Position numbers and translations under genes: made by a program
Assembly (NCBI GenBank): GCA_028688325.1
Contig: JAQTYI010000001.1
Span: forward strand, 104,820-168,819
Length of the DNA stretch: 64,000 bases
Source: Candidatus Portnoybacteria bacterium
Lineage (GTDB): Bacteria; Patescibacteriota; Minisyncoccia; Portnoybacterales; GWB1-42-6
Reading direction: 5' to 3'
Part shown: in pieces, positions 12,673-63,999 of the stretch
Position numbering within the stretch: the first letter of the stretch is position 1
Layout: every line of letters begins with the position of its first letter
Notes under the pieces: generated by a model
Seen by the model: only the letters and a program-made list of their open reading frames with translations
Database searches by the model: none
What the model was told of the DNA's origin: nothing

Positions 12673-12683
12673 TTTCTTTTTTG

Positions 12684-18823: not shown

Positions 18824-18857
18824 AAAGTCAAATACCGCGCCTTACGGCCGCGAATAT

Positions 18858-18891: not shown

Positions 18892-18903
18892 GCATATATT
18901 GTT

Positions 18904-19932: not shown

Positions 19933-19956
19933 CTCTCCTCTCTCTGTTTTTCTGCG

Positions 19957-20385: not shown

Positions 20386-20683
20386 GTACCCGTAAACCAG
20401 CCCAAGGCAAAGATGGCTGTGAAAATCAACGCACTTTTGCAGATCAGCGGGAATCGCTCCTTCTTTCCCTGCCGATAACTTTTTATTTTTTCCCTTTATA
20501 AATGCCTCCTTTCATGCAAAATATAATTTATGGTTTTTTAAGAACTGCTTGGTCTTTATCGGCCATTTCGCGCCTAAAAAACACTGTTCATACGATAACA
20601 TAAATATTATAACATATCAACCAAAAACCTATCAGATAATTCTGCCGCGCCCGGCCATAAAGATTTACCGCCGATACCCATCT

Positions 20684-21346: not shown

Positions 21347-21553
21347 GTTCTCTCTTTATGCGATTTTTTAAAAAAGTTGGCTGATGCGTTATCGCGCCTA
21401 AAAAACTCCGATAACAAGATAATGATAATATTTTAACATATCGATTGGCTATCGTGGTTCCTGCTCTATTTCAAAACCGCGGCTAAACTTGCCGCAATCA
21501 TAATAAGTCCGTTGTTTTTAATATAAGATCGGTTTGACGGAGGCAAAACAGCG

Positions 21554-22843: not shown

Positions 22844-22848
22844 CACCA

Positions 22849-24324: not shown

Positions 24325-24442
24325 TAGAATCTCGCCCTTAATTCAGGGTAGCCGATCATCAATAGATGCCGGTCATTTTAAGCAATGAAAAACACCGATT
24401 TGCCGGTGAAATAATATTACCGCTCTTATCGGGGGATAAACG

Positions 24443-24766
24443 CTAAAAAATTCCGCTGCAACCGACGGAGAAACAATTGACTATTTCCGTTTTGCCATAT
24501 TCCTTTAAAATTAAATCATTCCCCTGTTCGTTCAGCAGGTCGTCGCAAACCACTTTGGGCTTATTTGCTTCCTTTTTACTTAAATCCGGCGCGCCGGAAC
24601 GGCTGGAGTCATAATTTTCCCTCGGCGGCTGTTTTAGGCCGTAACTAAAACCGTTTTTTGCTTCCTTAATGATTATCCCGACCGCCGCGCTCAGCAATAA
24701 AACGCCCAGAGAAACGATTTTTACTATCTTTTTTGTTTTTTTATTCAATATGGACATATTTTTCAA
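24443..24766 (-). CDS. Small anchored protein with C-terminal Cys cluster (candidate substrate or accessory)
   Basis: 107 aa. TM/signal segment, then ...VVCDDLL...IVNCFSVGCSGIF. The start is TTG at 24766 or ATG at 24757. Confidence 0.35.
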   Translation of the reverse strand: MKNMSILNKKTKKIVKIVSLGVLLLSAAVGIIIKEAKNGFSYGLKQPPRENYDSSRSGAPDLSKKEANKPKVVCDDLLNEQGNDLILKEYGKTEIVNCFSVGCSGIF

Positions 24767-24866
24767 ACGATGATCTTTTATCCGGACGCATCATCTTCTC
24801 TTGTCTATAATATCACGCTTCTTTTAATTTACCTTAATCATTATCCACAATCGCCGGCAATATCAG

Positions 24867-25814
24867 CTATCCCGCCCGATAGATAACCGGCTTTAATTCT
24901 TCGTCCCCGTAATGGCCCAGATATGTTTTCCAGATTCCTTCGCACCGGTCGCGCAACCGGCACTTCTGGCACTTGGCGGTTTTAGCCCGACCGACCATGG
25001 CCCGGGAACTCTCCACATCAAAATTAACAAAGTCCGGAGCCAGATGCTCCGTTTTGAATTTTTCAACTTCCAGTAGTTCGCTCACCTGGTCAAGGTAATC
25101 GGCAAAATAACAAAGGGGCACATAACGGATATGCCAATGCCCGGCTTTATTTTTTTTGCCGATATCCAGGCACTGCCGTATAAAAGGCGCGGCTTCCGAT
25201 ATTTTGGGGACAAGTTCTTCAAAATTGTTGTGCGCCGCCCCCTCGTTGCAGTCAACAAAAATAAATTCGCAATTGCGGATGCCGAGCCCCAAAATGAACT
25301 CCCCGATTTTTGGCAGCTCTTGATAATTATGTTTGACGATAGTTGTGTTGGAGCCGATATTTTCAATCCCTAAGAATTCTTTGGCGTTGTTTAAGCCCGC
25401 CAGCAATTGGTCAAAACTGCCCTTGGCCTGGGTCAAAAAATCGTGCGTACCGGCGCTTGCGCCGTGAATAGAAAAAACCACGCTGTTAAGTCCGGCGGCA
25501 AAAAGTTTTTTCGCGTAAGGCCGGTAAGAAAGCATCCGGCCGTTGGTAGCCATCATGATGGTTTTAAAACCTAAGGCCTTGGCTTTTTTCACCAGGCGCA
25601 CAAAATCCGGCCTGACTGTGGTTTCTCCGCCGATGAATTCCAGATAGGTGGTTCCCCTTTTTCTGGCGTCGAGCATTTCCCGCTCGATCTGCGCCGTGCT
25701 TTTCTTGACTAGCCGGCGCTTGTCCGAGTCAATGCAAAAACGGCAATTGTTATTGCACTCATACCCGATGATGATGACGGTTTTTTTTATTTTCGACTGC
25801 TGCTTCCTTTTCAT
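24867..25814 (-). CDS. Radical SAM enzyme, twitch/SPASM-like paralog 1
   Basis: CNNNCRFC, GGETT, TNGRML, SIHGASAGTHD, AKGSF. C-terminal C-x2-C-x5-C (CQKCRLRDRCEGIW). The start is taken as the ATG at 25814, which overlaps the upstream gene stop in an ATGA arrangement. The track gives 25895. Confidence 0.8.
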   Translation of the reverse strand: MKRKQQSKIKKTVIIIGYECNNNCRFCIDSDKRRLVKKSTAQIEREMLDARKRGTTYLEFIGGETTVRPDFVRLVKKAKALGFKTIMMATNGRMLSYRPYAKKLFAAGLNSVVFSIHGASAGTHDFLTQAKGSFDQLLAGLNNAKEFLGIENIGSNTTIVKHNYQELPKIGEFILGLGIRNCEFIFVDCNEGAAHNNFEELVPKISEAAPFIRQCLDIGKKNKAGHWHIRYVPLCYFADYLDQVSELLEVEKFKTEHLAPDFVNFDVESSRAMVGRAKTAKCQKCRLRDRCEGIWKTYLGHYGDEELKPVIYRAG

Positions 25815-27037
25815 AAGCGACTGACCCATTCCAATAAGATATTGGCCAGAGATTTTTCCAGAAGCAAAGTGGTTATCGCTCCCGCGAACATCCACAAGGC
25901 GAACGGAGAACTTTTAAAGACATTCAACGAATCGATATTTTTACCCAAAAGAACCGCCTTGATCTTTTGGGCCCCCTCGCTGCTCAAACCGCCGATGGAA
26001 TCGCCTTTCATATCCGCCAGGCCCATGCTTTCCAGGCAAGCCGGATCAATCGCCATGCCGGGCTTCAGATCCGCAGTTTTCACCGTCTGAAGCTGATTTT
26101 TTTTCGTATAAAAATCCGACAGCCACTGGAACAAAGCCAGCAGAACAACAAAAATAACAGACGCGTTGACCGTCCGATAAAGTATCTGCAAGGTGGCGGA
26201 AAAATCATTTAAAAGGCCGAGAACGCAGATAAGAACGGTTGCCGATATTATCCATTTGGCGGCCCGGGCTTTCTTGATCGCGCCGGCCACGGCTTTATTA
26301 AAGAGAATCAAGGCCGCAAAAATTATCTGCTGCGCGCCCCCCAGATCGATCGACCAGCGGGATTGCGCCAGATGCTGGATGAAGTTGAACGCCAATATCA
26401 GGAATACCGGGATCATCAATCCGTTCAAAAAACTCTTGATCTTGTCTGCGGCCTTGGGCAAAAAATGCGCCCAATCAAAAATCTTTTCCCGCCTCAGCGC
26501 CTCAAAAAAACCGGCAGGATTATCCGCCAGCCGCCGGTAAAAGGAAAAGAAAAAGTGGCCGATCGCGCTGAATAAAAAATAAACCCAAAAAACAAGAAAG
26601 ATGTTGACCAGCAGGACAAAAGAGGGAAAGACCGGCAAATAGGACTTTTGATAATGAAAAAGCGGAATGAGTAGGGAGTAAACGATGAAAAGCTTGGCAT
26701 CGCCGGCCGCCCAAGAGTTGGCTTTCCACATGATAAAGCTCACCACCGCGGCGACAATGAAATTCAGAAAACTTTTCAGCAAGAACGGCAGATTGAAAGT
26801 ATATACCGTCAATGGCGCGTCCGCCGGCAACTTCAAAATTTTGGAATGATAAAAAGCGGTCAGTGAAGGAGCCAAAAAATACCAGACGAGAAACAAAAAA
26901 AGCGCTCCCAGCCCCCAATATAACCCCAAGGTTATCCATTTATTCCTGATCTTATTATATTTTATGTCTTCATAGCTTGTGACCAGTCCAATAAAAAAAA
27001 GCATCGGCAACAACACTATGTCAAGCAATAGCAACAT
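25811..27037 (-). CDS. Polytopic membrane protein with N-terminal A24-type aspartyl peptidase-like domain (TadV/CpaA-like)
   Basis: Motif YEDIKYNKIRN aligns with the YDLRHYIIPD of the pilD in this window. Motif AAGDAKL aligns with GMGDVKL. About 250 aa of additional TM domain follow. Confidence 0.45.
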   Translation of the reverse strand: MLLLLDIVLLPMLFFIGLVTSYEDIKYNKIRNKWITLGLYWGLGALFLFLVWYFLAPSLTAFYHSKILKLPADAPLTVYTFNLPFLLKSFLNFIVAAVVSFIMWKANSWAAGDAKLFIVYSLLIPLFHYQKSYLPVFPSFVLLVNIFLVFWVYFLFSAIGHFFFSFYRRLADNPAGFFEALRREKIFDWAHFLPKAADKIKSFLNGLMIPVFLILAFNFIQHLAQSRWSIDLGGAQQIIFAALILFNKAVAGAIKKARAAKWIISATVLICVLGLLNDFSATLQILYRTVNASVIFVVLLALFQWLSDFYTKKNQLQTVKTADLKPGMAIDPACLESMGLADMKGDSIGGLSSEGAQKIKAVLLGKNIDSLNVFKSSPFALWMFAGAITTLLLEKSLANILLEWVSRL

Positions 27038-51747: not shown

Positions 51748-52290
51748 TTATTTCTTGCTCTTGGCTTTTTTCGGCTTTTTCTCTTCTTGTTTCGCTTCGG
51801 GCTCTTCCTGTTTTTCCGGCTGACCGTATTTTTCTTCCCAAGGAACAGCGATGCCCAAGGGGTCGCTGGCGGAATCAAAGCCGATTTCCACGGGTTTGGC
51901 TTCGCAGTCGCACGGTTCACTGTTGGCGGCTGAAAATAACGCCCGCTCCACCACATATTGGCGGATCTTCTTGTTCTCCGCGGAAATCCCGACCCGCAAA
52001 GCGTAGTTTAAAAGTTCATTCAGAAAGTCGCCGGCCAAAACCCGGAGCTCTCCGGCCGACAACTTTTGCTTGGGCGTCAGAACCACTTCTATTTTTGAAC
52101 CGTTGCTGTCCAGAAACAAATATGCCTTGTCTATAAAAACATAACTGGCGCCGTAAACGGCCTCCAGCGGATAAATCGTCGTATTTAATGCCAAGGTTAA
52201 AGAATTTTTGTTGATTTTTTTTAGCATGCGTCGAAAATAATTTATTGGTGTTGTAATTTTAGACGACTGCCTGGCGGAAGTCAATATCAA
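51748..52290 (-). CDS. Hypothetical protein with Lys/Glu-rich C-terminal tail
   Basis: 180 aa. Confidence 0.35.
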   Translation of the reverse strand: MILTSARQSSKITTPINYFRRMLKKINKNSLTLALNTTIYPLEAVYGASYVFIDKAYLFLDSNGSKIEVVLTPKQKLSAGELRVLAGDFLNELLNYALRVGISAENKKIRQYVVERALFSAANSEPCDCEAKPVEIGFDSASDPLGIAVPWEEKYGQPEKQEEPEAKQEEKKPKKAKSKK

Positions 52291-52326: not shown

Positions 52327-52827
52327 TTACTTCAACCTTATGTCGCCCCGAATCCTTAGTCCGCCTTTTAAATTGATCGAAGGGATAAGCAAGAGAAAAG
52401 AATCACCGGAAATCCAGTCTGTAACACTGCTGTTATTATCGGTTATCTGCAACCGCCAATAATACCTAATGTTCAAAGACAAACCGCCAGTGCTATATGA
52501 TCTGGCTGCAGCGTTTGAAACGACCCCGGAATCCACATTAACCGAGCCGAACCCGGAATCATCATCAATCTGCACCTGATAAGCTGCTTGCGTATTGCCA
52601 ACAGCCGAAGCAAAAGTCCAATAAACAGTGGCATAACCGGCCCAAGGAGACAAAACGGCCTGGGCCGTGCAAGCGGTAAAATTACTGCCGGCATTCAATG
52701 TGGCCGCTTGGGCTTTCTGAATCGGAGAAAAAGAATGAAATATTAAATCTAAAACCAGCGCTAAAGCGATCATTTTATAAATTGCCGGTTTTGATAAAAA
52801 TTTTAATTCTGGCTTAATAAAAATCAT
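52327..52827 (-). CDS. Secreted hypothetical protein
   Basis: 166 aa. N-terminal anchor or signal sequence. Confidence 0.35.
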   Translation of the reverse strand: MIFIKPELKFLSKPAIYKMIALALVLDLIFHSFSPIQKAQAATLNAGSNFTACTAQAVLSPWAGYATVYWTFASAVGNTQAAYQVQIDDDSGFGSVNVDSGVVSNAAARSYSTGGLSLNIRYYWRLQITDNNSSVTDWISGDSFLLLIPSINLKGGLRIRGDIRLK

Positions 52828-52883: not shown

Positions 52884-53603
52884 TTATTCTAAAATTACGC
52901 CCCTTACACTTTCCAGCGATAGATCGTTAAGCCCTTTTTTAACTGACTTCTCATATCCCCTTTTTCCGCCAAAAACTTCCAGCAAGAAATCCCTTTGCGT
53001 GACCGATGGAAAATTATACTCGCCCAAATAATCCAAGTGGCTGCTCCATTTATATTTGTTCAAAAATTTCCATGCTTTGTCCGAATCTTTAATTTTTCCT
53101 TCCCGCCATTCCGGCGCCGCCAAATCCAACGGATTTAAATGAATATAATAAGGCAAATGGATGAAATGGGATCGGTTCTCAACCAAAACCGATTTGTATT
53201 TTCTTTCAAAAAGAGTTCCGGTCCTCTCGCGGCGTTGATTGAAATATTGAACATATCCGCCGTTTAATTTTTGCATGAATAACGCGATGCCTTTCTCAAC
53301 CGCCGGGCTTAGCAATAAATGATAGTGGTTTGGCATCAGACAAAAAGCGTGGATTTTAACCAACAATTTCCTTTCTCTTTGCCGTATCTCACGCACTCTG
53401 ACTGCGTGAGATACGGCATTAAACTTATAAAAATTTGACTGGACTCTTTGCTGATCGTTGAATTCAAAAAGGTCGTGGATAAAACGAAAACGGTCTTTAT
53501 CGTCCATAAAAATTTTACGCTTGTCGACTCCCCTGTTCAGCACATGGTATATTTCCGTCATAAATTTTAATTTAATTTTATTAAGTATCGCGCTCCGCCT
53601 CAC
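52884..53603 (-). CDS. Y1 (HUH) transposase, COG1943 / IS200-like long form
   Basis: HRGNRRQDIF-type N-terminus HVLNRGVDKRKIFMDDKDR. HUH motif LMPNHYHLLL. RYKS Tyr block. The likely start is the ATG at 53561. Confidence 0.7.
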   Translation of the reverse strand: MRRSAILNKIKLKFMTEIYHVLNRGVDKRKIFMDDKDRFRFIHDLFEFNDQQRVQSNFYKFNAVSHAVRVREIRQRERKLLVKIHAFCLMPNHYHLLLSPAVEKGIALFMQKLNGGYVQYFNQRRERTGTLFERKYKSVLVENRSHFIHLPYYIHLNPLDLAAPEWREGKIKDSDKAWKFLNKYKWSSHLDYLGEYNFPSVTQRDFLLEVFGGKRGYEKSVKKGLNDLSLESVRGVILE

Positions 53604-53630
53604 GCAGTCAGAGTGCGTGAGATTACGATG
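53380..53630. mobile_element. IS200-like subterminal hairpins
   Basis: Hairpin 53380-53418 (16-bp stem) and hairpin 53599-53621 (8-bp stem). Their cores are exact reverse complements of each other. Confidence 0.4.
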
Positions 53631-53870
53631 TTGGGGTCGGGGTTGGTGTAGCTTCCGGAGTAGTCAATGGAGTCGATGTTGGTGTTGGTGTTGGGGTTGG
53701 TGTAGCTTCCGGAGTAGTCAATGGGGTCGGTGTTGGTGTAGGAGTTGGGGTTGGGGTTGGTGTTGGGGTTGATGTCGGAGTCGGAGTAGCGGCCGGGGTT
53801 GGTGTTGGTGTGGCTTCCGGAGTAATCAATGGGGTAGCAGTTGGTGTTGGTGTAGCCAAAGGAATTTCCG
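53623..53870. repeat. GGTGTT-rich microsatellite-like region with about three ~57-bp tandem units encoding the TP linker
   Basis: The unit ggtgtagcttccggagtagtcaatgg(a/g)gtcg repeats and encodes LTTPEATPTPTP... Confidence 0.7.
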
Positions 53871-56800
53871 CCTGCCGGGTATTTTCGGCTACCGTGTCCA
53901 CTATCCACCAGCTGAAGCCGATTATTTGAGTGGAAGAAGCATTCATGCAAACCCTGAATCCCTGCGGCCGCTCAACGCTTCCCACATATTCGGGCTGGCT
54001 ATGCCGCTCGCAAATACCCATCGCCACCGGCATATCCGGCGTCACAAATATCTTGGTGGTTGTTGAAACCTGATTATTCATTATATAGGTATCCATTTCG
54101 CCTACATTTATTTGGCTCGAACCGATGGTCGCGTCTCCTTGGGCCGGAGTGGTGTTAATGGCCAGCTTGTCGGCCTGCAAAATATTTGCCGCCAATTTTT
54201 GCGCCTGCACTATTCCCTGACCCACTATCAGACCCATTTGGCGCAAACCGCCGATGACCGAAGCATACAAATTATCCACTAAAGCCACGATGGACGAAGG
54301 CGCAAGTTCTATCTTGTCGCCGCCTAATGTTTCCAACACCTGGTTGAAATTCGTCTGGGCGCTCAAAGCCCCGCTGGCCACGGTGTTTTCCAGTGTTGCC
54401 AGCCGCGTTTCCAGCGAATCAGTTTTTATTTTCACTTCGTCCACTTTGCCGCTCAGCGTTTTAACGCCCGCCAAAGTGAAGCTCGACAATTTATACAAAT
54501 CCACCCCTTTGCCGTCCGCGCTCAAAACCTCAAGCGGCGCTTCTTCGGCAATAAGGCCCAAGCGCTTATTACAGCCCCCGCTCCCACTATTGTCACCCTG
54601 AACTTGGTTCAGGGTCTGAGATCCCGAACCAAGTTCGGGATGACAAACTTCATCGCTGTTGTAGTAATAGGTCGCCACTTTGGCGTTGGTTATTTTGGCC
54701 AAAACATTCTCATAGTCCGCCGAACTCAAATACTCAATATCTTTTTTCGCCTCGCGCGTTGACAAATTGACAAAACCGGTAGCGCCGATATCCCCGCCCA
54801 CGGCCAGCCGAATGCCTGTGCTGGTGGCCGGTGTGCTTGTGCCGATGCCAATATTCCCCAGCGCATCCACGCTCATAAACGGCGAAGTGGTGGAAATGTC
54901 CGAAGCAATACTGATGCCCGAGAATAAGGGGGAAGAAGAAGCATAGAGCGCTTGGATGGAGTTAACCAGATAAGGAATTATGAAATCGGTTTTTAATCCC
55001 AGCATGCCGGTGGCCGGGTTTGTAACAACCACCGCTTCTGGAATCACGCTTTGTACCTCCTGCGCGATAAAGCCAAGTTGATTGGTTTGGCCATTGATAT
55101 AATCAAACCGTACGGGATTTAACTGAAGGATTATCTCCAACCCTCTGCCCAAATTGACAACATTTTCTTTAAGGCGGCGATCCGAACCATAAACCCAAGA
55201 AGCGGCTTTTATTTCCGCATATCCGTCATCGCGTATCACCAGAGTCGCGGAATCGTTTGAATCAACGACGATAAGACCATAGGTGCCACTCGTAGTTCCG
55301 CTACCTCCGACTTTTAATCTGGCGGATATATTCGCCGTCCCGATGCCGACATTGCCGCTGGTATCTATCGTCATTCTTTGCGGATTAGTCGCCCCGTCAA
55401 TTTCCTGAAACATTAATCTGCCTGTATCAGTCATATGCTGTATTCTCCAGGTTTGCGGCGAATCTTTATCAATAAGATCTAAAAAAGGATAATCTCCGGT
55501 CAATTCAACTCCACCGTTTCCCGTTGTTGTAAGGTTTAGGATAACATTATCAGAGCCAGCGTTTACATCTAATTTATACCCCGGGCTCGCCGTCCCGATG
55601 CCGACATTGCCGTTTTTAGAAATCTGCATAACTGGTGTGGTTGCATCATTGTTTGTAAAGAACATGAAATTACCGAAATTGGTTCCGGAGCCGGCCGTGG
55701 AGTAGTTGATAAACTTCATATTATCGTTTGCGTCGTTTACTAACATGTCTATCTTCCCATTCGCAGAAGATAATCTTATTGTTCCATTAACACCAGAGAC
55801 AGAATAAACATGCAACTTCGCCTCTGGACTATTTGTCCCAATTCCGACATTGCCGTTTCCATCAATCGTCAATCTATCGCTAGTACCGACCGCGGTAGAA
55901 GAAGCAATCTTGAATTTATTGGCGTCAGCGGTGTCTATTCCCATAGTCCATGCAATAGTTCCATCTCCGGTTGTGATGCCTATGGCTGGAGTAGTATCGT
56001 TATGGAGAGTTAAAACATTGTTGGGAGTGCTCGTCCCTATCCCCACACTCCCATTGGCCAGCACGGTCAGCAGAGTGGAGGTTGCCGTTCCGGCGGTGGT
56101 GCTCGCGATAGTGAAGAGCGGCGTGTTGGCAAGAGTGGTTGCGCTGTTTGAAATGGAAAGTAGAGAATATGGCGAGGTGGTGCCGATGCCGACGGAGCCC
56201 TCTATTATTGCTCCCGATGTAGGCGCAGCCAATGTTCCATAGGTCGCTCCTACGGCAAGATTTCCGACAACGCCCAATTTTGCCGCCGGCGCTGTTCCAG
56301 TGCCAACCCCCAAATAACCAAGAATATTGTTAGAGGCAGATGCCCCCCTAACATAAAGACCGCGAAATGAATCTGTGCCATCTACATCAAGGCCTATGTT
56401 AGAAGAGTCGGCAGGATATATAATAACACTCGACTTCCCAGCCGAAGGCACAACATGTAGTTGGCCTATCGGCGCCGCCGTTCCGATGCCCACATTTCCA
56501 TTCTCGTCCACCGTGAAATATGTGCCGGTGGATGAGCCGATGGAGAAACTATGCGCGCCGGCCGGGGCGTTCACGGACAAAGTAGACCAGGGAGTAGTAG
56601 TGCCAATCCCCACATTCCCGTTGGCCGAAACCGTCAAGGTTGAGGTGGCCTGCCAAGCCGAGTCCTGATAGGTCAAGGTCTGGCCTTGGGTGCCGACGGG
56701 CAAAGTGTTTACGCCTATCGTGAATAAAGTTGAGGTGCTCACCCATTCGGTGGCCGAGCCGGTGGATTTGAGAATGTAGCCGTTGGCGCCGGCCGAAGAC

Positions 56801-59800
56801 AAGCTGTCATAGAAGCCGCCGGTCAGGGCGAAGTTGCCCGAGACCGAGAACTTCTGGTAAGGCGAGGAGGTGGCAACGCCGATGTTGCCATTCTTATCCA
56901 CGATGAAGCGGGTAGCGGTGGAAGAGCCAATAGCAAAGGCGTCGCTGCCGGCGGGGGCGTTGACGGAAAGAAGAGCGGCCGGAGAGGAGGTGCCGACGCC
57001 AAAGTTGCCGGAAGAATTTATACGGAAGACATCTGAGTAAGCCAGCGAGCCGGTTGGCGAGCGCTTGATGGCAAAGTAATCATTCTGGCCGCCTAAGGTA
57101 ATATTCCAGGCCGAATAGACATCATTGATAAGGGCGCCCTGGGAGTTGTCGTTGGAGGAGAGAACCAGGTCTCCGGTGCTGGGTGCAATGTAGGCCTGGT
57201 AGGAAAGGTTGCCGGTGGCCTGGTAGTTTTGAAGAGTGAGAAGCCGGGTGTCGCCGGAAGCTTTGCTCTCGTAAAGATGGAGTTTGCCCACGGCCGCGGT
57301 GGTGGAGGCCATGCCAATGCCAACATTGCCGGTGGTGTTAAACCACAGGTTGTTGGAACCAAAGTTGGCTGAAGAGATGGCGGTGCGCAAATCTACCGGG
57401 ACGGTGTGGGTGTCCCCGTCGGTCTGGGTAACCAAGAGCATCATTGACTGGCCGGCCTGGATAGTATCGCCCGAACCCGCGTAGGTGGTTTCGGTGAAGG
57501 TGAGGTCGCCGGTCACAACATTCCGGCCATAGATATTGTTGAATCGCCGGTCGCCGGAACCCAAATTATAAAAAATGTCGGAAGTCGGCACTAAGCTACC
57601 GACCGTGGTCGTGCCGGTCGTATTGATGTTTCCGCTATTCCAGTTAGCAACATCTTCCGCCGTAATCAAAGCCGCGGTGCTGGAAGCAAAAATCGGGTCG
57701 GTCTCCGCCACCAGGCCACCATCACTACTAATCTCGCCCCAGCTTGAAATACACTCCCCGCCCAAGCACAATACGCCGGTGGTGGTGGTAGCGGTAACCG
57801 ACAGACCGTTAAGCGTTAGTTGGGAAAGAATGGAGGCGCCGGAAAGCAGGTCTACTTTGGAGTTGAGTTCCTGAATACCGGCTGTCAGAATTGCCTCAAA
57901 GCCGGAGGGATTATACCAATAGTATTCGTCGCCGCCCTGTTTGACCATTTCCGGAATAACATCCATCAATTCCTGAGCCACGAAGCCATACATCACGCTG
58001 TCAGTGGAGGTGCCATAGAGCTGTTGGTGCAAACTATTCCATTCATATTTGATGGGGCGGAGCCGCGATAAAGTATCTAAGGCCGTGCCATTCAGATCAG
58101 CCAGAATGTTCTTTAGACGGCTGTCAGACAAATCGCTCCAAGCTGTGCCGCCCACGGTCTTGCCGGCTGAACCGGTAACCTGCAAGGTATTGGATGAGGG
58201 GTTAGTCGTCCCGATGCCGACATTGCCGTTATTTTTTATGACCATCTTGGTATTGTCTGTAATGTTATATATATTGGAATCGCTGCTGTCGTCTATGGCA
58301 AAAAACATATCTTGCATTCCGTAGGACGCGCCCGTTGCCTGAGTTACTATAGCCGCTTTTGGAACGCCCACTATATTATTGGCAAATTCGTAGCCGACAA
58401 TCCCAGCATCAGCCACATTGTGCTCAACTAAAATTTTTGAGTTGCTACCATAGACGGTCAAACTACGAGCCGGATCTGTCGTTCCGATGCCGACATTGCC
58501 GCCGGAATTAATAACCATTTGCTGAGAACCATTAGTTCTAAATGTCATTTCGTTTGCTGAATGGTTATACCATAATGCTCCCGGATACTCCGCTTGCGGA
58601 TCTCCCCACATCAAACCAGCCTCCACAGTATTAGGAGTTTGAAATTGTAAAAAAGTTTGAGTATTACTTTCAATGGTCATTCCTACTTCTGCTGATCTAG
58701 CCGTTCCACCAGAAGCACCTAAATAACTATGTAATTTAGACAACGGATTCGCCGTCCCGATTCCGACATTCCCGCTGGCCAGCACAGTAAATAAGGTTGA
58801 AGTAGCCGTTCCGGCAGTGGTGCTCGCGATAGTGAAGAGCGGCGTGTTGGCAGGAGTGGTTGCGCTGTTTGAAATGGAAAGTAGAGAATATGGCGAGGTG
58901 GTGCCGATGCCAAAGTTGCCGGCGCTGGTGAGAATCATCTGGCCCACGCCGCTGCCAGATGTGGCGCCGTTGGAGTAGAAGCGCAGGCCATTACCGGTGT
59001 CGGCCGCCATTACTAAATCCGCGCTCGTATCCGCTTCCCACTGGCCGGAGACGCCGATAAGGCCAGAACGCGTAGCGCTCTTGTAGAAGCTAACCGCGCC
59101 GCCGCGGTTATTATTATCAATTTTCAAATCAGCATCTGTTCCCGTGCCGCGGATTTCCAGGAGCGAGCGGGCGGTTGAGGTGCCGATGCCAACATTCCCG
59201 GTATTGTAGTAAACATCGGAGCCCGTAATATTCCAGAGGTTGGAAGAAGGCGCCATTTTGATACAATAGAGAACCGATGTGTTGACCGGCCGGGTTTCGG
59301 TGCCGCCGGTGGAACCGGAATTAAATTGAGAAATGTCTAAAGCGTGGGTGTGGTCGCCAGCGCTTGATGTATTAGTAACTCCAAAGGTGGTATTCGCACC
59401 GGCCCTCACGGTACTTTGATCTGATCCGACAGCAACATCATCATTCAGTATGCTATGCGTATGCGCCCCGTCACTGGAACTGGTCGTTGATGGCGGATCA
59501 ACCGCATGCAAGTGGCTAGCGTTGGTGTAGGTCTGATATGACCCGACAACATCCCCCGTCGTGCCATCGCCTCTGGCGCCGCGGCTGGCTCTGTCCGGGT
59601 CAGAAGTCGAGGCGTTGGCCCAACCTCTTAAGAACACGCCTCGGTAATCCGGCAGTTTAAAGCTGGCGTCCGAACCGCCGTAGGTGTAGCCGATCTCGTT
59701 AAATAAATCCGGATAAGTGGAGGTAGCCACGGTCGCGCCGTTGGCTTCTGACCAGCCAGTCGGACAGGTGGAGGTGGCAAAAGCCGAGACGGTGCCGGTG

Positions 59801-62800
59801 GGCACAGTGTCCACGCTCACATAGTTGGTCTGGCCCGGCGCGCTGATAGATGTCCAGGAGCCGCCGGAGTTTTTGTATTGTACGGTGCCGGAAAAATCTC
59901 TCAAACCATAACCGGAAGTACCGGCCGTGGCGTTGAAATTGATATAGTTATTGGCGCCCGAAAGCATCAAGCTGCCGGCCGCGTCCAAAACTGAAGCGGG
60001 GCTGGCCGTGCCCAAGCCCACAAAGCCACCTGGCGTGATATACAAACTATTAGCCGGCGCGGCCATGTTCACAACCAAGGCGGCGCTGTTACCAGCCACA
60101 AATCCGCCCGAGAGAGTGGAAGTGGCAGTGGTGGTGGTGGCCGTGAAATAGTCAGCTCTGATATCTTGATTGAAAACCCCGCGGCCGGCGACGGCTAAAG
60201 CGGCGTATGGGGAGGTAGTGCCAATTCCCACATTCCCGTTGGCCAGCACCGTCAGAGTTGAAGTCGCTTGCCAGGCAGAATTTTGATAGGTCAAGGTCTG
60301 GCCTTGGGTGCCGACGGGCAAGGTGTCCACTCCTATCGTGAATAAAGTTGAGGTGCTCACCCACTCGGTGGCCGAGCCGGTGGATTTGAGAATGTAGCCG
60401 TTGGCGCCGGCCGAAGACAAGCTGTCATAGAAGCCGCCGGTCAGGGCGAAGTTGCCCGAGACCGAGAACTTCTGGTAAGGCGAGGAGGTGGCAACGCCGA
60501 TGTTGCCATTCTTATCCACGATGAAGCGGGTAGCGGTGGAAGAGCCAATAGCAAAGGCGTCGCTGCCGGCGGGGGCGTTGACGGAAAGAAGAGCGGCCGG
60601 AGAGGAGGTGCCGACGCCAAAGTTGCCGGAAGAATTTATACGGAAGACATCTGAGTAAGCCAGCGAGCCGGTTGGCGAGCGCTTGATGGCAAAGTAATCA
60701 TTCTGGCCGCCTAAGGTAATATTCCAGGCCGAATAGACATCATTGATAAGGGCGCCCTGGGAGTTGTCGTTGGAGGAGAGAACCAGGTCTCCGGTGCTGG
60801 GTGCAATGTAGGCCTGGTAGGAAAGGTTGCCGGTGGCCTGGTAGTTTTGAAGAGTGAGAAGCCGGGTGTCGCCGGAAGCTTTGCTCTCGTAAAGATGGAG
60901 TTTGCCCACGGCCGCGGTGGTGGAGGCCATGCCAATGCCAACATTGCCGGTGGTGTTAAACCACAGGTTGTTGGAACCAAAGTTGGCTGAAGAGATGGCG
61001 GTGCGCAAATCTACCGGGACGGTGTGGGTGTCCCCGTCGGTCTGGGTAACCAAGAGCATCATTGACTGGCCGGCCTGGATAGTATCGCCCGAACCCGCGT
61101 AGGTGGTTTCGGTGAAGGTGAGGTCGCCGGCGATGATATTCTGGCCGTAGATATTGGCGAATTTCCTGTCTGGCGAACCGAGATTGTATGAAAGATTGAT
61201 AGACGGCACCAAGCTGCCCACCGTCGTTGTACCGATTAAGTCAATCTCTCCCCCATCGCCCCAAGCCGTCCGGCAACTATCGCCCAAGCACAACGCGCCA
61301 GTCGTGGTGGTAGCGGTAACCGACAGACCGTTAAGCGTTAGCTGGGAAAGAATGGAGGCGCCGGAAAGCAAGTCTACTTTGGAGTTGAGTTCCTGGGTGG
61401 CCTTTATTAATATTGGCACAAACTTTGAATAAGCTACTGTTTTATAACCATCCTCCCCTTCACCAACCAACTGAGGAAAAATACTTTCTATTTCCTGCGC
61501 AATCACGCCAATATCGTTGGCTGCGACCTGATGGTCAGAAATAAAACTATATTCCCTAACCTTTATATTGTTCAAATCGCTCAAATAGCCCCGCGCGTCA
61601 ACAATATTTTCTTTTAATCTAATATCTGATATGCCGCCGTATGAGTTGTCGTGGTTTTGGACATCGCCATCGGAATAAATAATAACCCGCGCAGTTGTAC
61701 TGTCTTGTCCTTTAAATAAATAACTGCTGTTATCATCTGGAGAGCCGCCGCTAAAAGAGACATAAATACCCAAAGGAACGGTAGCATTCGTATTAACAAA
61801 TTGAGCGGCTAAGGATTGTTCGCCGGTTTGTACCTGTAATTTATACTCCGGCGCCGCCGTCCCGATTCCGATGTTGCCGGTCGAGTCCATTCTCATCAAT
61901 ACCGCGTCTGAGGAGTTGACGATATACAAGGGGGACTCAGATGCTCCAGCTTTGATGGAGACCGTGGAAGCGGGAGTGGAAGTGCCCACGCCGAACTTGG
62001 AGCCGGTATCAACATAGACATTGCCATTGTCACCGTTATTGCCAGCGATGGTCATCAGGCCGTTGGAATCAACGCCAATCGTGCCGTATTTGGTGTCGCT
62101 ATAAGCCAGCGTTAATTGGGAAGAGCCGGTTGACTTGAGGGACAAAAGGGACATGGGCGAAGTTGTTCCGATGCCGACATTGCCGTTATTCAAAATGGTT
62201 AAAGCCGCCGGGGTTGAAGTGGCATAGGAATCGGTGGAAGTGCCAACATATAAGTTCCCGCCCATACTTGATAGCAACCAATGTTTCAAATTGGCAGAAG
62301 CGGAATAGTCCGAAAGGGCCAGCGATGGACGCGTGCCGGAGATTTGGGTCTTCCAGGCCGGACTCGTCGTCCCGATCCCGACATTGCCGCTCTTTATCAC
62401 CATACTGACGGTGTCGGTAACGCCGGAAACAAACCCCAGAGTATTAGCTCCGACCCAATACATGCCAGTATCCGTATCCCCGTCAAAAGAATATGTCGGC
62501 CAATTAACATTTCCCGCGGTATCGCTGTCAATTAAAAATGTGCCGGTGGTGCCAGAGCCCACGATTGAGCCGTCGTCCCAAATGCCCATACGCCGGGTGC
62601 CGTTGGTGGAAATACCGATAACATTGGCGCTCATGCTATAAATACCAGTATTCGGATCGCTCCCAAAGGTATATGAAGGCAAAGCCGCCGAGCCGTTCGA
62701 GGCATAGAACATCCCGCTCGTTTCAATATTGCCCAAAGCGTAAAAATTGCCGCTTGTGCCAAGGTTGCCGGTGGAAGTGGCGGCGCCGGAGATGCTCAAT

Positions 62801-63999
62801 GCGCCGCCAAGAACGGCGGCGCCGGTGACGGACAAATTCCCGCCGGTATAAAGAGCGCCGCCAAAGTATCCCATACCCGTACTCTGCACGACTCCCGCGG
62901 TGGTGGTGGCAATGCCCACTCCCAAACCGCCGGCCATGTAAGTATTGCCGGTGACCGAATCCACGGTCAGATAAGTGGTGTTCACTGAAAAGTTGCCAGC
63001 AACATTCAACGCGCCGTCAACCTGCAAATCCGAGCCAAAAGTGGAAGCGCCGGAAAAATAGGCCGAGCCCTCCACCGATAATTTCTTGAACGGGGAGGTC
63101 GTGCCAATGCCAATGTTACCATTATTTAAAAGAGTTAACGCGGCCGGCGAACTCGTGGCATACGAATCCGTGGAGGTGCCAACATACAAATTCCCACCCA
63201 TAGAAGATACAAGCCAATGCTTCAGGTTCGTTCCGGCCGAAGAGTCAGAGAGCGCCAAGGAGGGCCGCGTACCGTTAACTTGCAGTTTCCAGTAGGGAGT
63301 GGTCGTGCCGATGCCAACATTGTAGGAGATATCGTTTACATAAATACTTGAGCCGCTCTTATCCCAATAGATCGCCGAACTGCCGACCAGTGCCGTGCCG
63401 TTCCAATAAAGCGCGCCGCTCAACGAGTAAAGCCGGTTATCGGTCGCCACCGGCGCGACTGTATCGCCGATTATGATATTGCCGTTGCTGGCCACGCCAA
63501 AGGGCGGATTGCCGGAAACTTTGGTGGAAGTTGAAATGAAAAAGTCGTTAGTGTCGTTGGAATTAAAATCCGTGCCGATGACGAACTGTTCCCCGCTGGT
63601 GCTGTCGCCATAAAACAAAGCTCGCGTGGTGTGTGAAGCGGTATCGTTATTGATAATACGCAAGCCGTATTTGATATCGCCGGTGGCGCGGCCGTTGGCC
63701 AAAATATCAAGATGCGAAGTCGGGGTGGTGGTGCCGATTCCAACCAAACCGTTGACCACGAATTCGGCGCTCGGATTGGTGTAGCCAATGCCGATGTTCC
63801 CTGATGAATTCATATACAAACCGTTATTGGAGCCGGTTTTGATTTGAATGTCGCGCACCTGGCCCACGCCGCCCTGAGCCGTGGCGATGATAAAAACATC
63901 CGTGCCGGAAAATCCAATATTGGCCTTTTCATAATTATTGCCGGTGCGCGTCCAAACATTCAAACCGGCAGTTCCCAAATTTGCTTCCTTCCAGCGCAA
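53623..63999 (-). CDS. Giant repetitive surface protein (C-terminal 3458 aa; N-terminus beyond window) with S74-like intramolecular chaperone modules
   Basis: Single ORF open to the window edge. GN(V/I)GIGTTSP repeats. SD(I/S/R)RLKENI(V)... modules occur at least 3 times. C-terminal (TP)n linker. Confidence 0.75.
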   Translation of the reverse strand: MRWKEANLGTAGLNVWTRTGNNYEKANIGFSGTDVFIIATAQGGVGQVRDIQIKTGSNNGLYMNSSGNIGIGYTNPSAEFVVNGLVGIGTTTPTSHLDILANGRATGDIKYGLRIINNDTASHTTRALFYGDSTSGEQFVIGTDFNSNDTNDFFISTSTKVSGNPPFGVASNGNIIIGDTVAPVATDNRLYSLSGALYWNGTALVGSSAIYWDKSGSSIYVNDISYNVGIGTTTPYWKLQVNGTRPSLALSDSSAGTNLKHWLVSSMGGNLYVGTSTDSYATSSPAALTLLNNGNIGIGTTSPFKKLSVEGSAYFSGASTFGSDLQVDGALNVAGNFSVNTTYLTVDSVTGNTYMAGGLGVGIATTTAGVVQSTGMGYFGGALYTGGNLSVTGAAVLGGALSISGAATSTGNLGTSGNFYALGNIETSGMFYASNGSAALPSYTFGSDPNTGIYSMSANVIGISTNGTRRMGIWDDGSIVGSGTTGTFLIDSDTAGNVNWPTYSFDGDTDTGMYWVGANTLGFVSGVTDTVSMVIKSGNVGIGTTSPAWKTQISGTRPSLALSDYSASANLKHWLLSSMGGNLYVGTSTDSYATSTPAALTILNNGNVGIGTTSPMSLLSLKSTGSSQLTLAYSDTKYGTIGVDSNGLMTIAGNNGDNGNVYVDTGSKFGVGTSTPASTVSIKAGASESPLYIVNSSDAVLMRMDSTGNIGIGTAAPEYKLQVQTGEQSLAAQFVNTNATVPLGIYVSFSGGSPDDNSSYLFKGQDSTTARVIIYSDGDVQNHDNSYGGISDIRLKENIVDARGYLSDLNNIKVREYSFISDHQVAANDIGVIAQEIESIFPQLVGEGEDGYKTVAYSKFVPILIKATQELNSKVDLLSGASILSQLTLNGLSVTATTTTGALCLGDSCRTAWGDGGEIDLIGTTTVGSLVPSINLSYNLGSPDRKFANIYGQNIIAGDLTFTETTYAGSGDTIQAGQSMMLLVTQTDGDTHTVPVDLRTAISSANFGSNNLWFNTTGNVGIGMASTTAAVGKLHLYESKASGDTRLLTLQNYQATGNLSYQAYIAPSTGDLVLSSNDNSQGALINDVYSAWNITLGGQNDYFAIKRSPTGSLAYSDVFRINSSGNFGVGTSSPAALLSVNAPAGSDAFAIGSSTATRFIVDKNGNIGVATSSPYQKFSVSGNFALTGGFYDSLSSAGANGYILKSTGSATEWVSTSTLFTIGVDTLPVGTQGQTLTYQNSAWQATSTLTVLANGNVGIGTTSPYAALAVAGRGVFNQDIRADYFTATTTTATSTLSGGFVAGNSAALVVNMAAPANSLYITPGGFVGLGTASPASVLDAAGSLMLSGANNYINFNATAGTSGYGLRDFSGTVQYKNSGGSWTSISAPGQTNYVSVDTVPTGTVSAFATSTCPTGWSEANGATVATSTYPDLFNEIGYTYGGSDASFKLPDYRGVFLRGWANASTSDPDRASRGARGDGTTGDVVGSYQTYTNASHLHAVDPPSTTSSSDGAHTHSILNDDVAVGSDQSTVRAGANTTFGVTNTSSAGDHTHALDISQFNSGSTGGTETRPVNTSVLYCIKMAPSSNLWNITGSDVYYNTGNVGIGTSTARSLLEIRGTGTDADLKIDNNNRGGAVSFYKSATRSGLIGVSGQWEADTSADLVMAADTGNGLRFYSNGATSGSGVGQMILTSAGNFGIGTTSPYSLLSISNSATTPANTPLFTIASTTAGTATSTLFTVLASGNVGIGTANPLSKLHSYLGASGGTARSAEVGMTIESNTQTFLQFQTPNTVEAGLMWGDPQAEYPGALWYNHSANEMTFRTNGSQQMVINSGGNVGIGTTDPARSLTVYGSNSKILVEHNVADAGIVGYEFANNIVGVPKAAIVTQATGASYGMQDMFFAIDDSSDSNIYNITDNTKMVIKNNGNVGIGTTNPSSNTLQVTGSAGKTVGGTAWSDLSDSRLKNILADLNGTALDTLSRLRPIKYEWNSLHQQLYGTSTDSVMYGFVAQELMDVIPEMVKQGGDEYYWYNPSGFEAILTAGIQELNSKVDLLSGASILSQLTLNGLSVTATTTTGVLCLGGECISSWGEISSDGGLVAETDPIFASSTAALITAEDVANWNSGNINTTGTTTVGSLVPTSDIFYNLGSGDRRFNNIYGRNVVTGDLTFTETTYAGSGDTIQAGQSMMLLVTQTDGDTHTVPVDLRTAISSANFGSNNLWFNTTGNVGIGMASTTAAVGKLHLYESKASGDTRLLTLQNYQATGNLSYQAYIAPSTGDLVLSSNDNSQGALINDVYSAWNITLGGQNDYFAIKRSPTGSLAYSDVFRINSSGNFGVGTSSPAALLSVNAPAGSDAFAIGSSTATRFIVDKNGNIGVATSSPYQKFSVSGNFALTGGFYDSLSSAGANGYILKSTGSATEWVSTSTLFTIGVNTLPVGTQGQTLTYQDSAWQATSTLTVSANGNVGIGTTTPWSTLSVNAPAGAHSFSIGSSTGTYFTVDENGNVGIGTAAPIGQLHVVPSAGKSSVIIYPADSSNIGLDVDGTDSFRGLYVRGASASNNILGYLGVGTGTAPAAKLGVVGNLAVGATYGTLAAPTSGAIIEGSVGIGTTSPYSLLSISNSATTLANTPLFTIASTTAGTATSTLLTVLANGSVGIGTSTPNNVLTLHNDTTPAIGITTGDGTIAWTMGIDTADANKFKIASSTAVGTSDRLTIDGNGNVGIGTNSPEAKLHVYSVSGVNGTIRLSSANGKIDMLVNDANDNMKFINYSTAGSGTNFGNFMFFTNNDATTPVMQISKNGNVGIGTASPGYKLDVNAGSDNVILNLTTTGNGGVELTGDYPFLDLIDKDSPQTWRIQHMTDTGRLMFQEIDGATNPQRMTIDTSGNVGIGTANISARLKVGGSGTTSGTYGLIVVDSNDSATLVIRDDGYAEIKAASWVYGSDRRLKENVVNLGRGLEIILQLNPVRFDYINGQTNQLGFIAQEVQSVIPEAVVVTNPATGMLGLKTDFIIPYLVNSIQALYASSSPLFSGISIASDISTTSPFMSVDALGNIGIGTSTPATSTGIRLAVGGDIGATGFVNLSTREAKKDIEYLSSADYENVLAKITNAKVATYYYNSDEVCHPELGSGSQTLNQVQGDNSGSGGCNKRLGLIAEEAPLEVLSADGKGVDLYKLSSFTLAGVKTLSGKVDEVKIKTDSLETRLATLENTVASGALSAQTNFNQVLETLGGDKIELAPSSIVALVDNLYASVIGGLRQMGLIVGQGIVQAQKLAANILQADKLAINTTPAQGDATIGSSQINVGEMDTYIMNNQVSTTTKIFVTPDMPVAMGICERHSQPEYVGSVERPQGFRVCMNASSTQIIGFSWWIVDTVAENTRQAEIPLATPTPTATPLITPEATPTPTPAATPTPTSTPTPTPTPTPTPTPTPLTTPEATPTPTPTPTSTPLTTPEATPTPTPTS
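56590..57885. repeat. Internal duplication copy 1 within the giant gene
   Basis: Near-identical to 60210-61395, with an offset of 3618 bp that shrinks to 3522 bp after a 96-bp indel. Confidence 0.8.
60210..61395. repeat. Internal duplication copy 2 within the giant gene
   Basis: See copy 1. The identical shadow ORFs 57093-57362/60711-60980 and 57284-57484/60902-61102 confirm the identity. Confidence 0.8.

What the first reader, a model, noticed from the sequence alone, without database searches (positions are those of the whole stretch)
53623..63999. Giant surface protein with multiple S74 chaperone-like modules and a 1.3-kb internal near-identical duplication
More than 10 kb of one ORF, truncated by the window, is built from GNVGIGTTSP-type beta-helix-like repeats. 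Three or four SDxRLKENI...Y modules punctuate it. These are characteristic of the C-terminal intramolecular chaperone and autoprotease domains of phage tail fibres and endosialidases. The protein ends in a (TP)n linker.

Two segments, 56590-57885 and 60210-61395, are nearly identical at the DNA level. That implies recent intragenic duplication, or an assembly collapse or expansion risk.

Multiple autoproteolytic modules in one polypeptide could release several fibre-like fragments.
Basis: partly seen in the sequence, partly recalled or inferred. Interest (0 to 1): 0.6.

Follow-up and report, generated by a model that had tools for sequence, protein, structure and literature searches.

The report
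Giant multi-unit fibre protein, four S74 modules
A tiny-celled bacterium (Candidatus Portnoybacteria) carries a chromosomal gene for a huge protein that resembles several phage tail fibres joined end to end; each unit ends in a self-cleaving folding module, an arrangement seen in only a handful of public sequences and not described in the papers searched.

Summary
A minus-strand ORF (53623-63999, 3458 codons, open at the window edge) carries four Peptidase_S74 modules, a T4 gp12-like receptor-binding domain, 20 GNxGxGT shaft repeats and a (TP)n tail. All four S74 modules keep the Ser-x4-Lys dyad.

The "1.3-kb near-identical duplication" is a 766-nt exact repeat (56747-57512 = 60365-61130). Its flanks decay to 84-90% on one side and 76-56% on the other. 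That pattern suits a recent gene-conversion tract between older paralogous units.

The host is cellular. PilB in the window is 100% identical to a Candidatus Portnoybacteria MAG with a 789-kb contig. No phage genes lie downstream.

The two internal S74 modules are each followed by a conserved Cys-loop plus "restart" module. The same S74-then-restart order recurs in about eight public loci and in no IMG/VR contig. In a scan of 1.84 billion representatives, most top hits have two S74 modules, eight have three, and only one (P0121) has five.

Best reading: a trimeric, tail-fibre-like surface adhesin built from at least three units, each folded from its own S74 nucleus and probably self-cleaved. 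Cleavage, surface location and function are inferred, not shown. This is a new variant of a known kind, of moderate interest.

The parts
53623..63999 (-). Giant ORF: 3458 codons plus stop. The 5' end runs off the window.
   Evidence: PilB in the window is 100% identical to a Ca. Portnoybacteria MAG gene lying ~554 kb into a 788,852-bp contig, so the truncation is by the window and not by the assembly.
61630..63999 (-). Shaft of unit I (aa 1-790), GNxGxGT-type tail-fibre repeats.
   Evidence: phrog_9942, phrog_18345, phrog_28766 tail fibre proteins.
61300..61629 (-). S74 module 1 (aa 791-900). Dyad S791/K796.
   Evidence: PF13884, 46.2 bits; module alignment.
60211..61299 (-). Cys-loop (CLGDSC, aa 904-909) plus restart module, copy A (aa 901-1263).
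   Evidence: The module is conserved in P0121 (three copies), P0123, P0128, P0258 and L015-L020.
60365..61130 (-). Exact 766-nt repeat, copy A.
59254..59808 (-). T4 gp12-like receptor-binding domain (aa 1398-1582): Collar plus HxH head, bracketed by C1412 and C1579.
   Evidence: PDB 1ocy, E 7e-10; PF07484, 66 bits; phrog_523.
58129..59253 (-). Shaft (aa 1583-1957).
57778..58128 (-). S74 module 2 (aa 1958-2074). Dyad S1958/K1963.
   Evidence: PF13884, 43.5 bits; MyRF ICA 7dc3 sequence match.
56593..57777 (-). Cys-loop (CLGGEC) plus restart module, copy B (aa 2075-2469). Carries a 32-codon longer linker than copy A.
56747..57512 (-). Exact 766-nt repeat, copy B.
55186..56592 (-). Shaft of unit III (aa 2470-2938).
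54868..55185 (-). S74 module 3 (aa 2939-3044). Dyad S2939/K2944.
   Evidence: PF13884, 61 bits; AF2 pLDDT ~90; Foldseek best match MyRF ICA 7dc3, E 2e-4.
54406..54762 (-). S74' module 4 (aa 3080-3198). Has the STREAK motif and a Cys-bracketed insert.
   Evidence: PF13884, 22.7 bits. It is the most conserved block in 37 homologues, with S and K nearly invariant.
53875..54405 (-). Long helix or helices (aa ~3168-3254) and C-terminal beta-sandwich (aa ~3289-3369).
   Evidence: AF2 model. Weak but concordant similarity to the C-terminal domain of the Pam1 tailspike, 7eea: Foldseek E 7e-3 and profile E 0.021.
53626..53874 (-). (TP)n low-complexity tail (aa 3376-3458).

Best explanation
The gene is a chromosomal gene of a Candidatus Portnoybacteria (Patescibacteria/CPR) bacterium. 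It encodes a giant trimeric fibre related to phage tail fibres, most likely a surface adhesin for contact with a host or partner cell.

The polypeptide is a chain of at least three fibre units. Each unit has a repeat-rich shaft, and unit II also carries a T4 gp12-like receptor-binding knob. Each unit ends in an S74 intramolecular-chaperone/autoprotease module.

By analogy with K1F endosialidase, T5 pb1, Bdellovibrio Bd3182 and MyRF, each S74 module should trimerise, nucleate folding of the shaft N-terminal to it, and then cut at its own Ser. Internal modules would let a fibre of more than 3,400 residues fold segment by segment.

After each internal S74 comes a conserved Cys-x4-Cys loop, a variable linker and a 'restart' module that begins the next shaft. 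The last unit ends in a family-typical cassette: S74, one repeat, S74', coiled coil, beta-sandwich, then a TP linker.

The two restart modules are kept alike by intragenic recombination, which produced the 766-nt identical tract.

Shown here: the domain composition, the conserved dyads, the recurring S74-then-restart order, and the cellular context.
Inferred: trimer state, folding role, cleavage, surface location and adhesion.
For: - Four PF13884 matches plus Collar.
- gp12 homology, E 7e-10, and a MyRF ICA match.
- Tail-fibre PHROG families match along the whole length.
- The Ser and Lys columns read S in 308 and K in 310 of 313 S74 modules from 152 related proteins. This includes every internal module.
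- The AF2 model of the C-terminal cassette (pLDDT 73) best matches MyRF ICA. All 228 significant matches to viral proteins (E<=0.001), where listed, cover only a single S74 module.
- The S74-then-restart order recurs in P0121/L014 (three times), L015 (twice), L018, P0123/L020 and P0128.
- Relatives also hold intragenic restart copies at 77-89% DNA identity.
- The context is chromosomal: type IV pilus genes, radical-SAM and glycosyltransferase genes here, and housekeeping genes around P0121.
- PilB is 100% identical to a Ca. Portnoybacteria MAG.
- The ten Cys residues form five local pairs, as expected for an extracytoplasmic protein.
- Relatives start with an HTH plus transmembrane anchor or a signal peptide.
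- Self-cleavage of a cell-encoded S74 fibre (Bd3182, abolished by S782A) is published (PMC10769870).
Against: - The N-terminus is outside the window, so export and anchoring are unknown for this protein.
- No experimental data exist for any family member.
- If the protein is anchored at its N-terminus, as its relatives are, cleavage at internal S74 sites would detach everything distal. That is not obviously useful.
- AF2 gave no usable model of the restart module (pLDDT 37).
- The restart module also occurs after non-S74 sequence in L016 and L017, so the S74 pairing is frequent but not obligatory.
- The 766-nt exact repeat cannot be checked against reads.
Confidence: 0.6

Rival explanations
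1. The internal S74 modules are in-line trimerisation and registration nodes that do not release anything. The mature fibre stays one continuous chain per protomer, several hundred nanometres long. Only the terminal S74/S74' pair, if any, is processed.
For: Relatives are anchored at the N-terminus (HTH plus TM), so internal cleavage would shed the distal units. The conserved Cys-loop right after each internal S74 could staple the three chains together. The restart module continues directly into a new shaft.
Against: The catalytic Ser and Lys are retained in essentially all modules, internal ones included. That is unexpected if only the chaperone role mattered. Internal S74 (ICA) in MyRF does cleave (established knowledge; structural match).
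Confidence: 0.25
2. The long ORF or its duplication is an assembly artefact. Either several separate fibre genes were falsely joined, or one restart module was duplicated or collapsed by the assembler.
For: A 766-nt exact repeat spaced 3.6 kb apart is longer than short-read k-mers. Independent short-read assemblies of the same organism are fragmented, at 4 and 12 kb contigs.
Against: The frame stays open for 10.4 kb through both copies and all junctions. The flanks of the exact tract diverge gradually, with in-frame indels. A direct two-copy repeat has a single path that uses the unique 2.9-kb sequence between the copies (inference). The same multi-unit layout, with 77-89% intragenic repeats, occurs in independent genomes and metagenomes.
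Confidence: 0.07
3. It is the tail-fibre gene of a prophage, tailocin or contractile injection system, not a cellular adhesin.
For: Every recognisable domain is of phage tail-fibre type. The region upstream of the gene was not seen. A Y1-transposase-like gene abuts the 3' end.
Against: No phage structural, replication or lysis genes lie in the 53 kb downstream. The relative P0121 sits between SecA/Obg/GatB and GAPDH/transketolase genes. No IMG/VR contig encodes the restart module. Relatives carry their own membrane anchors or signal peptides. GC3 matches that of neighbouring genes.
Confidence: 0.06

Closest known systems
Bdellovibrio bacteriovorus MAT (mosaic adhesive trimer) fibres, S74 subgroup, e.g. 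Bd3182 (PMC10769870)
   Same: Both are cell-encoded, phage-tail-fibre-like and presumably trimeric beta-rich fibres with a short recurring V-G-x-G...P...L-type loop motif. Both have an S74 chaperone/protease with an SDxxxK site. Both have an adhesive role in contact with another bacterium, which is proposed there and inferred here.
   Different: MAT proteins are about 1,000 aa with one terminal S74. This protein exceeds 3,458 aa and has four S74 modules, two of them internal and followed by restart modules, plus a tandem S74-S74' end cassette with further C-terminal domains. The MAT-defining N-terminal domain could not be examined. The host phylum also differs (Patescibacteria).
C-terminal intramolecular chaperone domain of phage K1F endosialidase and T5 L-shaped tail fibre pb1 (MEROPS S74; PDB 3GW6, 4UW8)
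   Same: The Pfam family is the same and the Ser-x4-Lys dyad is present. The module sits directly after a repeat-rich shaft, as in those fibres.
   Different: In the phage proteins the module is single, at the extreme C-terminus, and discarded. In every PHROG family matched here the S74 part also lies at the profile's end. Here three of the four modules are followed by more protein.
Eukaryotic MyRF ICA domain (PDB 7dc3)
   Same: It is the best structural and PDB-sequence match to the S74 modules. It is also the known precedent for an S74 domain inside a polypeptide that still cleaves, leaving the domain on the C-terminal product.
   Different: MyRF has a single module in a membrane-bound transcription factor with no fibre shaft, and the topology is different.
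T4 short tail fibre gp12 receptor-binding domain (PDB 1ocy/1pdi)
   Same: aa 1398-1582 align over the whole gp12 collar/head region, E 7e-10, including His-x-His motifs.
   Different: In gp12 this domain is the C-terminal tip. Here it is a mid-chain knob followed by about 1,900 more residues.
Giant surface proteins of CPR epibionts (e.g. Vampirococcus lugosii, PMC8080830)
   Same: Both are very large proteins in a small CPR genome with a putative role in host attachment.
   Different: The proteins described there carry WD40, PKD, DUF11, integrin or fibronectin domains. No S74 or tail-fibre architecture is reported.

Membership tests
Peptidase S74 / intramolecular chaperone auto-processing domain (PF13884) | Significant match to the family profile | tested here: met
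   Four matches at 46, 43.5, 61 and 22.7 bits against a cut-off of 22. The model's structural match to MyRF ICA has E 2e-4, and there are 228 viral S74 matches.
Peptidase S74 / intramolecular chaperone auto-processing domain (PF13884) | Catalytic Ser-Lys dyad (S-x4-K) | tested here: met
   S791/K796, S1958/K1963, S2939/K2944 and S3080/K3085 are invariant in the module alignment. The dyad is kept in 308 and 310 of 313 modules across relatives.
Peptidase S74 / intramolecular chaperone auto-processing domain (PF13884) | Located at the C-terminal end of a trimeric fibre or spike and released after folding | tested here: not met
   Modules 1 and 2 are internal, and modules 3 and 4 are followed by 140 and 260 further residues. 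MyRF shows that an internal position is compatible with the family.
Peptidase S74 / intramolecular chaperone auto-processing domain (PF13884) | Trimerisation-dependent autoproteolysis | not testable with these tools
   This needs expression of segments with Ser-to-Ala controls.
Bdellovibrio-type MAT fibre family | Conserved beta-rich ~130-aa domain directly after the signal peptide (PMC10769870) | not testable with these tools
   The N-terminus lies outside the window. Relatives instead begin with HTH_17 plus a TM helix or with a plain signal peptide.
Bdellovibrio-type MAT fibre family | Long trimeric fibre ending in S74 or an adhesive tip domain | tested here: inconclusive
   Shaft repeats, S74 modules and a gp12-like knob are present. 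Trimer state is not shown, and monomer AF2 of the restart/shaft region failed.
T4 gp12-like receptor-binding domain (Collar, PF07484) | Collar domain match plus homology to the gp12 head | tested here: met
   PF07484, 66 bits. PDB 1ocy aligns over chain residues 11-196, E 7e-10.
Prophage / tailocin tail fibre | Neighbouring phage tail, baseplate or capsid genes | tested here: not met
   No such genes lie in the 53 kb downstream. The upstream side was not visible. Relative P0121 has a housekeeping context.

The most novel reading that the evidence does not exclude
The gene encodes a self-processing 'polyfibre' precursor. A single polypeptide of 3.5-6.5 thousand residues is exported and folded unit by unit by its internal S74 chaperone modules. 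It is then cut at each module into several distinct trimeric fibres. Each distal fibre begins with the previous S74 trimer, a Cys-loop and a restart module. One gene therefore yields several adhesin fibres, one of them carrying a gp12-like receptor-binding knob. These would be either shed or held together non-covalently as a segmented tether between the CPR cell and its host. This would be a bacterial, fibre-type counterpart of a viral polyprotein.
Probability: 0.3. Interest if true: 0.75.

Novelty: new variant of a known kind. Interest (0 to 1): 0.55.

Why it matters
S74 intramolecular chaperones are understood as single, terminal, disposable folding aids of phage fibres and spikes. MyRF is the lone well-studied internal case. 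A family of cellular giant proteins that uses the module repeatedly inside one chain, with a conserved module to restart the fibre after each one, would extend that picture in two ways.

First, it suggests how extremely long trimeric fibres can be folded in register. Second, it suggests that one gene could yield several fibres.

It also gives a concrete, testable candidate for host attachment in Parcubacteria-type CPR bacteria, whose attachment machinery is largely unknown. The test is simple: express segments with Ser-to-Ala controls.

The exact 766-nt tract and the 77-89% intragenic repeats in relatives point to ongoing recombination among units. That would be a route to rapid variation of a host-recognition protein.

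Tried and rejected
1. A whole-protein homology search timed out, so segments were used instead.

2. Idea: the 'YNLGSPxxRF' restart motif mimics a protein N-terminus, because P0121 seemed to start with it. Rejected. The P0121 start is an artefact of an N-run in the scaffold. An upstream ORF (L014:7047-10082; HTH_17, TM helix, then fibre) runs into it. The motif instead matches the End_tail_spike stalk profile, positions 124-154.

3. AF2 of the restart module from a 7-row alignment gave pLDDT 37.5 and was unusable. No fold search was made on it.

4. H-type lectin identity for the C-terminal beta-sandwich was not established.
- Foldseek hits to Helix pomatia agglutinin were not significant, E ~0.08-0.18.
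- Pfam found nothing in this protein.
- Only the relative P0139 gives a sub-threshold H_lectin hit.
- The best weak match is the C-terminal domain of the Pam1 tailspike.

5. Foreign (phage) origin judged from GC content: rejected. The excess GC is at codon position 2, which reflects amino-acid composition. GC3 lies within the range of neighbouring genes.

6. C-terminal truncation by the adjacent Y1-transposase-like gene was considered, because relatives continue into Ig-like DUF5011 domains. No remnant of such a domain was seen downstream in any frame. This is left open.

8. The 5' end of the gene could not be retrieved.

9. Literature searches for S74 together with CPR, Patescibacteria or giant genes found no description of this architecture.
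Full report
**What is there**

The feature is one open reading frame on the minus strand, 53623-63999. It has 3458 codons and a stop at 53623-53625. The frame is still open at base 63999, so the listed 'TTG start' is only the window edge.

The protein is rich in Gly, Thr, Ser and Ala (12.0, 12.0, 11.1 and 8.9%). That composition explains the raised G+C of the region: GC2 is 0.51 against 0.33-0.43 in neighbouring genes. GC3 is 0.59, within the neighbours' range of 0.46-0.62, so composition gives no sign of foreign origin.

**Checking the observation**

Pfam PF13884 (Peptidase_S74) matches four times:
- aa 791-845, 46 bits
- aa 1958-2020, 43.5 bits
- aa 2939-2990, 61 bits
- aa 3080-3129, 22.7 bits against a cut-off of 22; the motif is STREAK rather than SDxRLK

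An alignment of the four modules has the Ser, the Lys five residues later, and the G..A.E motif invariant.

Other confirmed features:
- 20 strict GN[VIF]G[IV][GA]T repeats.
- Tail-fibre PHROG families matching along the whole length.
- A (TP)n tail at aa ~3376-3458.
It lies mid-chain and is followed by about 1,900 more residues.

**The duplication**

BLASTN gives two aligned blocks:
- 56590-57616 vs 60210-61234, 94.9% over 1030 nt
- 57759-57873 vs 61281-61395, 94.8%

An in-frame 96-nt length difference lies between them.

The identity is very uneven. An exact 766-nt tract (56747-57512 = 60365-61130, offset 3618) is flanked by 84-90% identity on one side and by 76% falling to 56%, with indels, on the other. 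In protein terms aa 958-1224 equal aa 2164-2430.

A perfectly identical core with graded, in-frame-diverged edges is what a recent gene-conversion tract between older paralogous units would leave. A fresh duplication of the whole 1.3 kb would look different. This reading is an inference.

An assembly error cannot be excluded without reads, but three points argue against it:
- The frame is intact through both copies.
- A two-copy direct repeat has only one path that includes the unique sequence between the copies (inference).
- Related genes in other assemblies contain the same repeated module at 77-89% DNA identity (L014, L015).

**Whose gene it is**

The 53 kb downstream are cellular:
- Type IV pilus genes for PilC, PilT and PilB.
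- TctA and a ketosynthase.
- A long minus-strand cluster with at least ten radical-SAM genes, HxsD, glycosyltransferases, a PMT_2-type mannosyltransferase, a carbamoyltransferase and an aminotransferase.

There are no tRNA or Rfam hits.

The PilB protein is 100% identical to a protein of a Candidatus Portnoybacteria MAG: GCA_028710785.1, contig JAQTTM010000001.1, 788,852 bp. The gene sits about 554 kb into that contig. The giant gene is therefore cut by the window, not by the assembly.

Homologues of the C-terminal 450 aa are almost all from Patescibacteria. They are annotated 'tail fiber domain-containing' or 'DUF5011' proteins, and the best is 61-64% identical.

**Architecture and its relatives**

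The last ~530 residues form a cassette shared by hundreds of Patescibacteria proteins. It runs S74, one shaft repeat, a variant S74' (the most conserved block, with Ser and Lys nearly invariant in 37 sequences), a long helix, a small beta-sandwich, then a low-complexity linker. In relatives Ig-like DUF5011 domains often follow.

An AF2 model of this cassette has mean pLDDT 73, with about 90 in the S74 cores and the beta-sandwich.
- Its best PDB match is the MyRF ICA domain (7dc3, E 2e-4).
- 228 viral proteins match at E<=0.001, and the listed matches cover only one S74 module.
- The beta-sandwich weakly resembles the C-terminal domain of the cyanophage Pam1 tailspike, concordantly by Foldseek (E 7e-3) and by profile search (E 0.021).

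The two internal S74 modules are the unusual part. Each is followed by this sequence of elements:
- the helix ...ELNSKVDLL...
- a conserved Cys-x4-Cys loop (CLGDSC / CLGGEC)
- a linker of variable length
- a 'restart' module (P.....YNLGSP..RF.NIY...GDLTFTET...THTVPVD...GSNN..FNTTGNVGIG...) that leads into the next shaft

This restart module is rare:
- One hit in the 5.8-billion-cluster word-indexed search.
- None in IMG/VR.
- Six loci in the metagenome collection.
- The proteins P0121, P0123 and P0128 from the representative library.

Where enough upstream sequence is visible, an S74 module usually precedes it by roughly 130-650 residues. This holds for P0121/L014 (three times), L015 (twice), L018, P0123/L020 (where an intein sits in the linker), P0128, and twice here. 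L016 and L017 show the Cys-loop and restart module after other upstream sequence, so the pairing is frequent rather than absolute.

**How rare multiple S74 modules are**

A profile of the four modules was run against 1.84 billion representative proteins. It found 156,351 matches at E<=1e-3. Whole-protein scores add up over modules, so proteins with many modules should rank at the top.

Module counts in the top 150 plus the fetched loci were:

| S74 modules per protein | Number of proteins |
|---|---|
| 2 | 134 |
| 3 | 8 |
| 4 | 1 (the window protein) |
| 5 | 1 (P0121) |

P0121 is listed as 5473 aa. It is really about 6,450 aa, because an N-run splits it from an upstream ORF that encodes an HTH_17 domain, a TM helix and more fibre.

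Across 313 modules the Ser column is S in 308 and the Lys column is K in 310.

**Mechanism**

What is established from other systems (my own knowledge, plus for Bd3182):
- S74 domains trimerise.
- They nucleate folding of the triple-stranded shaft N-terminal to them.
- They then cut at their own serine.
- In MyRF the domain is internal and stays on the C-terminal product.

Applied here, the protein reads as at least three fibre units, each folded from its own S74 nucleus. The near-total conservation of the dyad in internal modules argues that they cut too. If so, the products would be:
- the sequence upstream of residue 791
- 791-1957 (S74-1, restart module, shaft, gp12-like knob, shaft)
- 1958-2938
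- 2939-3079
- 3080 to the end

Evidence bearing on location:
- All ten cysteines sit in five local pairs, which fits an extracytoplasmic protein.
- Relatives begin with an HTH plus TM anchor or with signal peptides.

The difficulty is that in an N-terminally anchored fibre, internal cleavage would free everything distal. The main rival is therefore that the internal modules act as uncut, in-line trimerisation nodes. I put about 0.6 on the general model and about 0.3 on true multi-fragment release.

**Comparison with what is known**

The closest cellular analogue is the S74 subgroup of Bdellovibrio MAT fibres. These are about 1,000 aa with one terminal S74, and self-cleavage has been shown (PMC10769870).

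The giant proteins described for CPR epibionts carry other domains (PMC8080830). The giant-gene survey preprint does not mention S74. No paper in the library combines S74 with CPR or Patescibacteria.

I therefore file the modules as S74 family members. Profile match and dyad are met. Terminal position is not met, and proteolysis could not be tested.

**Verdict**

The protein as a whole is a new variant of a known kind: a Patescibacteria multi-unit S74 fibre with a conserved S74-then-restart order. It is of moderate interest, and it can be tested directly by expressing segments with Ser-to-Ala controls.

Noticed in passing
window 27638-52290, minus strand: A dense cluster of at least ten radical-SAM genes, two of them with SPASM domains. 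It also holds an HxsD (His-Xaa-Ser system) homologue at 51748-52290, GT4 and GT2 glycosyltransferases, a PMT_2 protein-mannosyltransferase-like gene, a carbamoyltransferase and a class-III aminotransferase. It may be a peptide- or glycan-modification locus. Whether it acts on the Thr/Pro-rich tail of the giant protein is pure speculation.
   Followed up: partly
window 52884-53603, minus strand: A Y1_Tnp / REP-associated-tyrosine-transposase-like ORF (39 bits, below the NCBIfam cut-off) starts about 20 nt after the giant gene's stop. Relatives of the giant protein continue past their linker into Ig-like DUF5011 domains, so a truncating insertion is conceivable. No domain remnant was seen downstream.
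   Followed up: partly
window 52327-52827, minus strand: A small (166 aa) protein with an N-terminal hydrophobic segment and an Ig_Rha78A_N-like domain (34 bits), lying between the transposase-like gene and HxsD.
   Followed up: no
window 6964-11662, minus strand: Type IV pilus genes: PilC-like T2SSF, PilT-like and PilB-like T2SSE. PilB is 100% identical to a Candidatus Portnoybacteria MAG protein (GCA_028710785.1, 788,852-bp contig), which identifies the source genome.
   Followed up: yes
L014:7047-10082 and 10001-26422; L004:6353-; P0139: Relatives of the giant fibre begin with a cytoplasmic HTH_17-like DNA-binding domain followed by a TM helix. In L014 a run of N splits what is really one gene of about 6,450 codons into an uncalled 1011-aa ORF and the 5473-aa P0121. 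Why a DNA-binding domain sits on the cytoplasmic end of a giant external fibre is unexplained.
   Followed up: partly
P0123 (= L020) aa ~1116-1471: An intein (Intein_splicing, 59 bits) is inserted in the linker between an internal S74 module and its restart module. Several C-terminal-cassette homologues (P0001, P0017, P0048) also carry precomputed intein hits.
   Followed up: no
giant protein aa 904/909, 2078/2083, 1412/1579, 3119/3143, 3330/3351: The only ten cysteines in 3458 residues form five local pairs. Two pairs are the conserved C-x4-C loop that follows each internal S74 module and is also present in P0121, P0123, P0128 and L016-L019. In a trimer this loop could form an inter-chain disulfide knot or a metal site.
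   Followed up: partly
window 56032-56190 vs 58753-58911; 62155-62288 vs 63092-63224: Further intragenic DNA repeats at 89% and 76% identity, outside the main duplication. One example is the shared 'IGTTSPYSLLSISNSATT..NTPLFTIASTTAGTATSTL' segment in two shafts.
   Followed up: no
P0139 C-terminus; P0005; L017:3-782: Other members of the wider family end in, or contain, different tip or chaperone domains. P0139 has a sub-threshold H-type-lectin match (22.1 bits against a cut-off of 24). P0005 has a Peptidase_G2 (phi29 gp12-type autocleaving chaperone) match (25.5 bits). This suggests mix-and-match of intramolecular chaperones and tips.
   Followed up: partly
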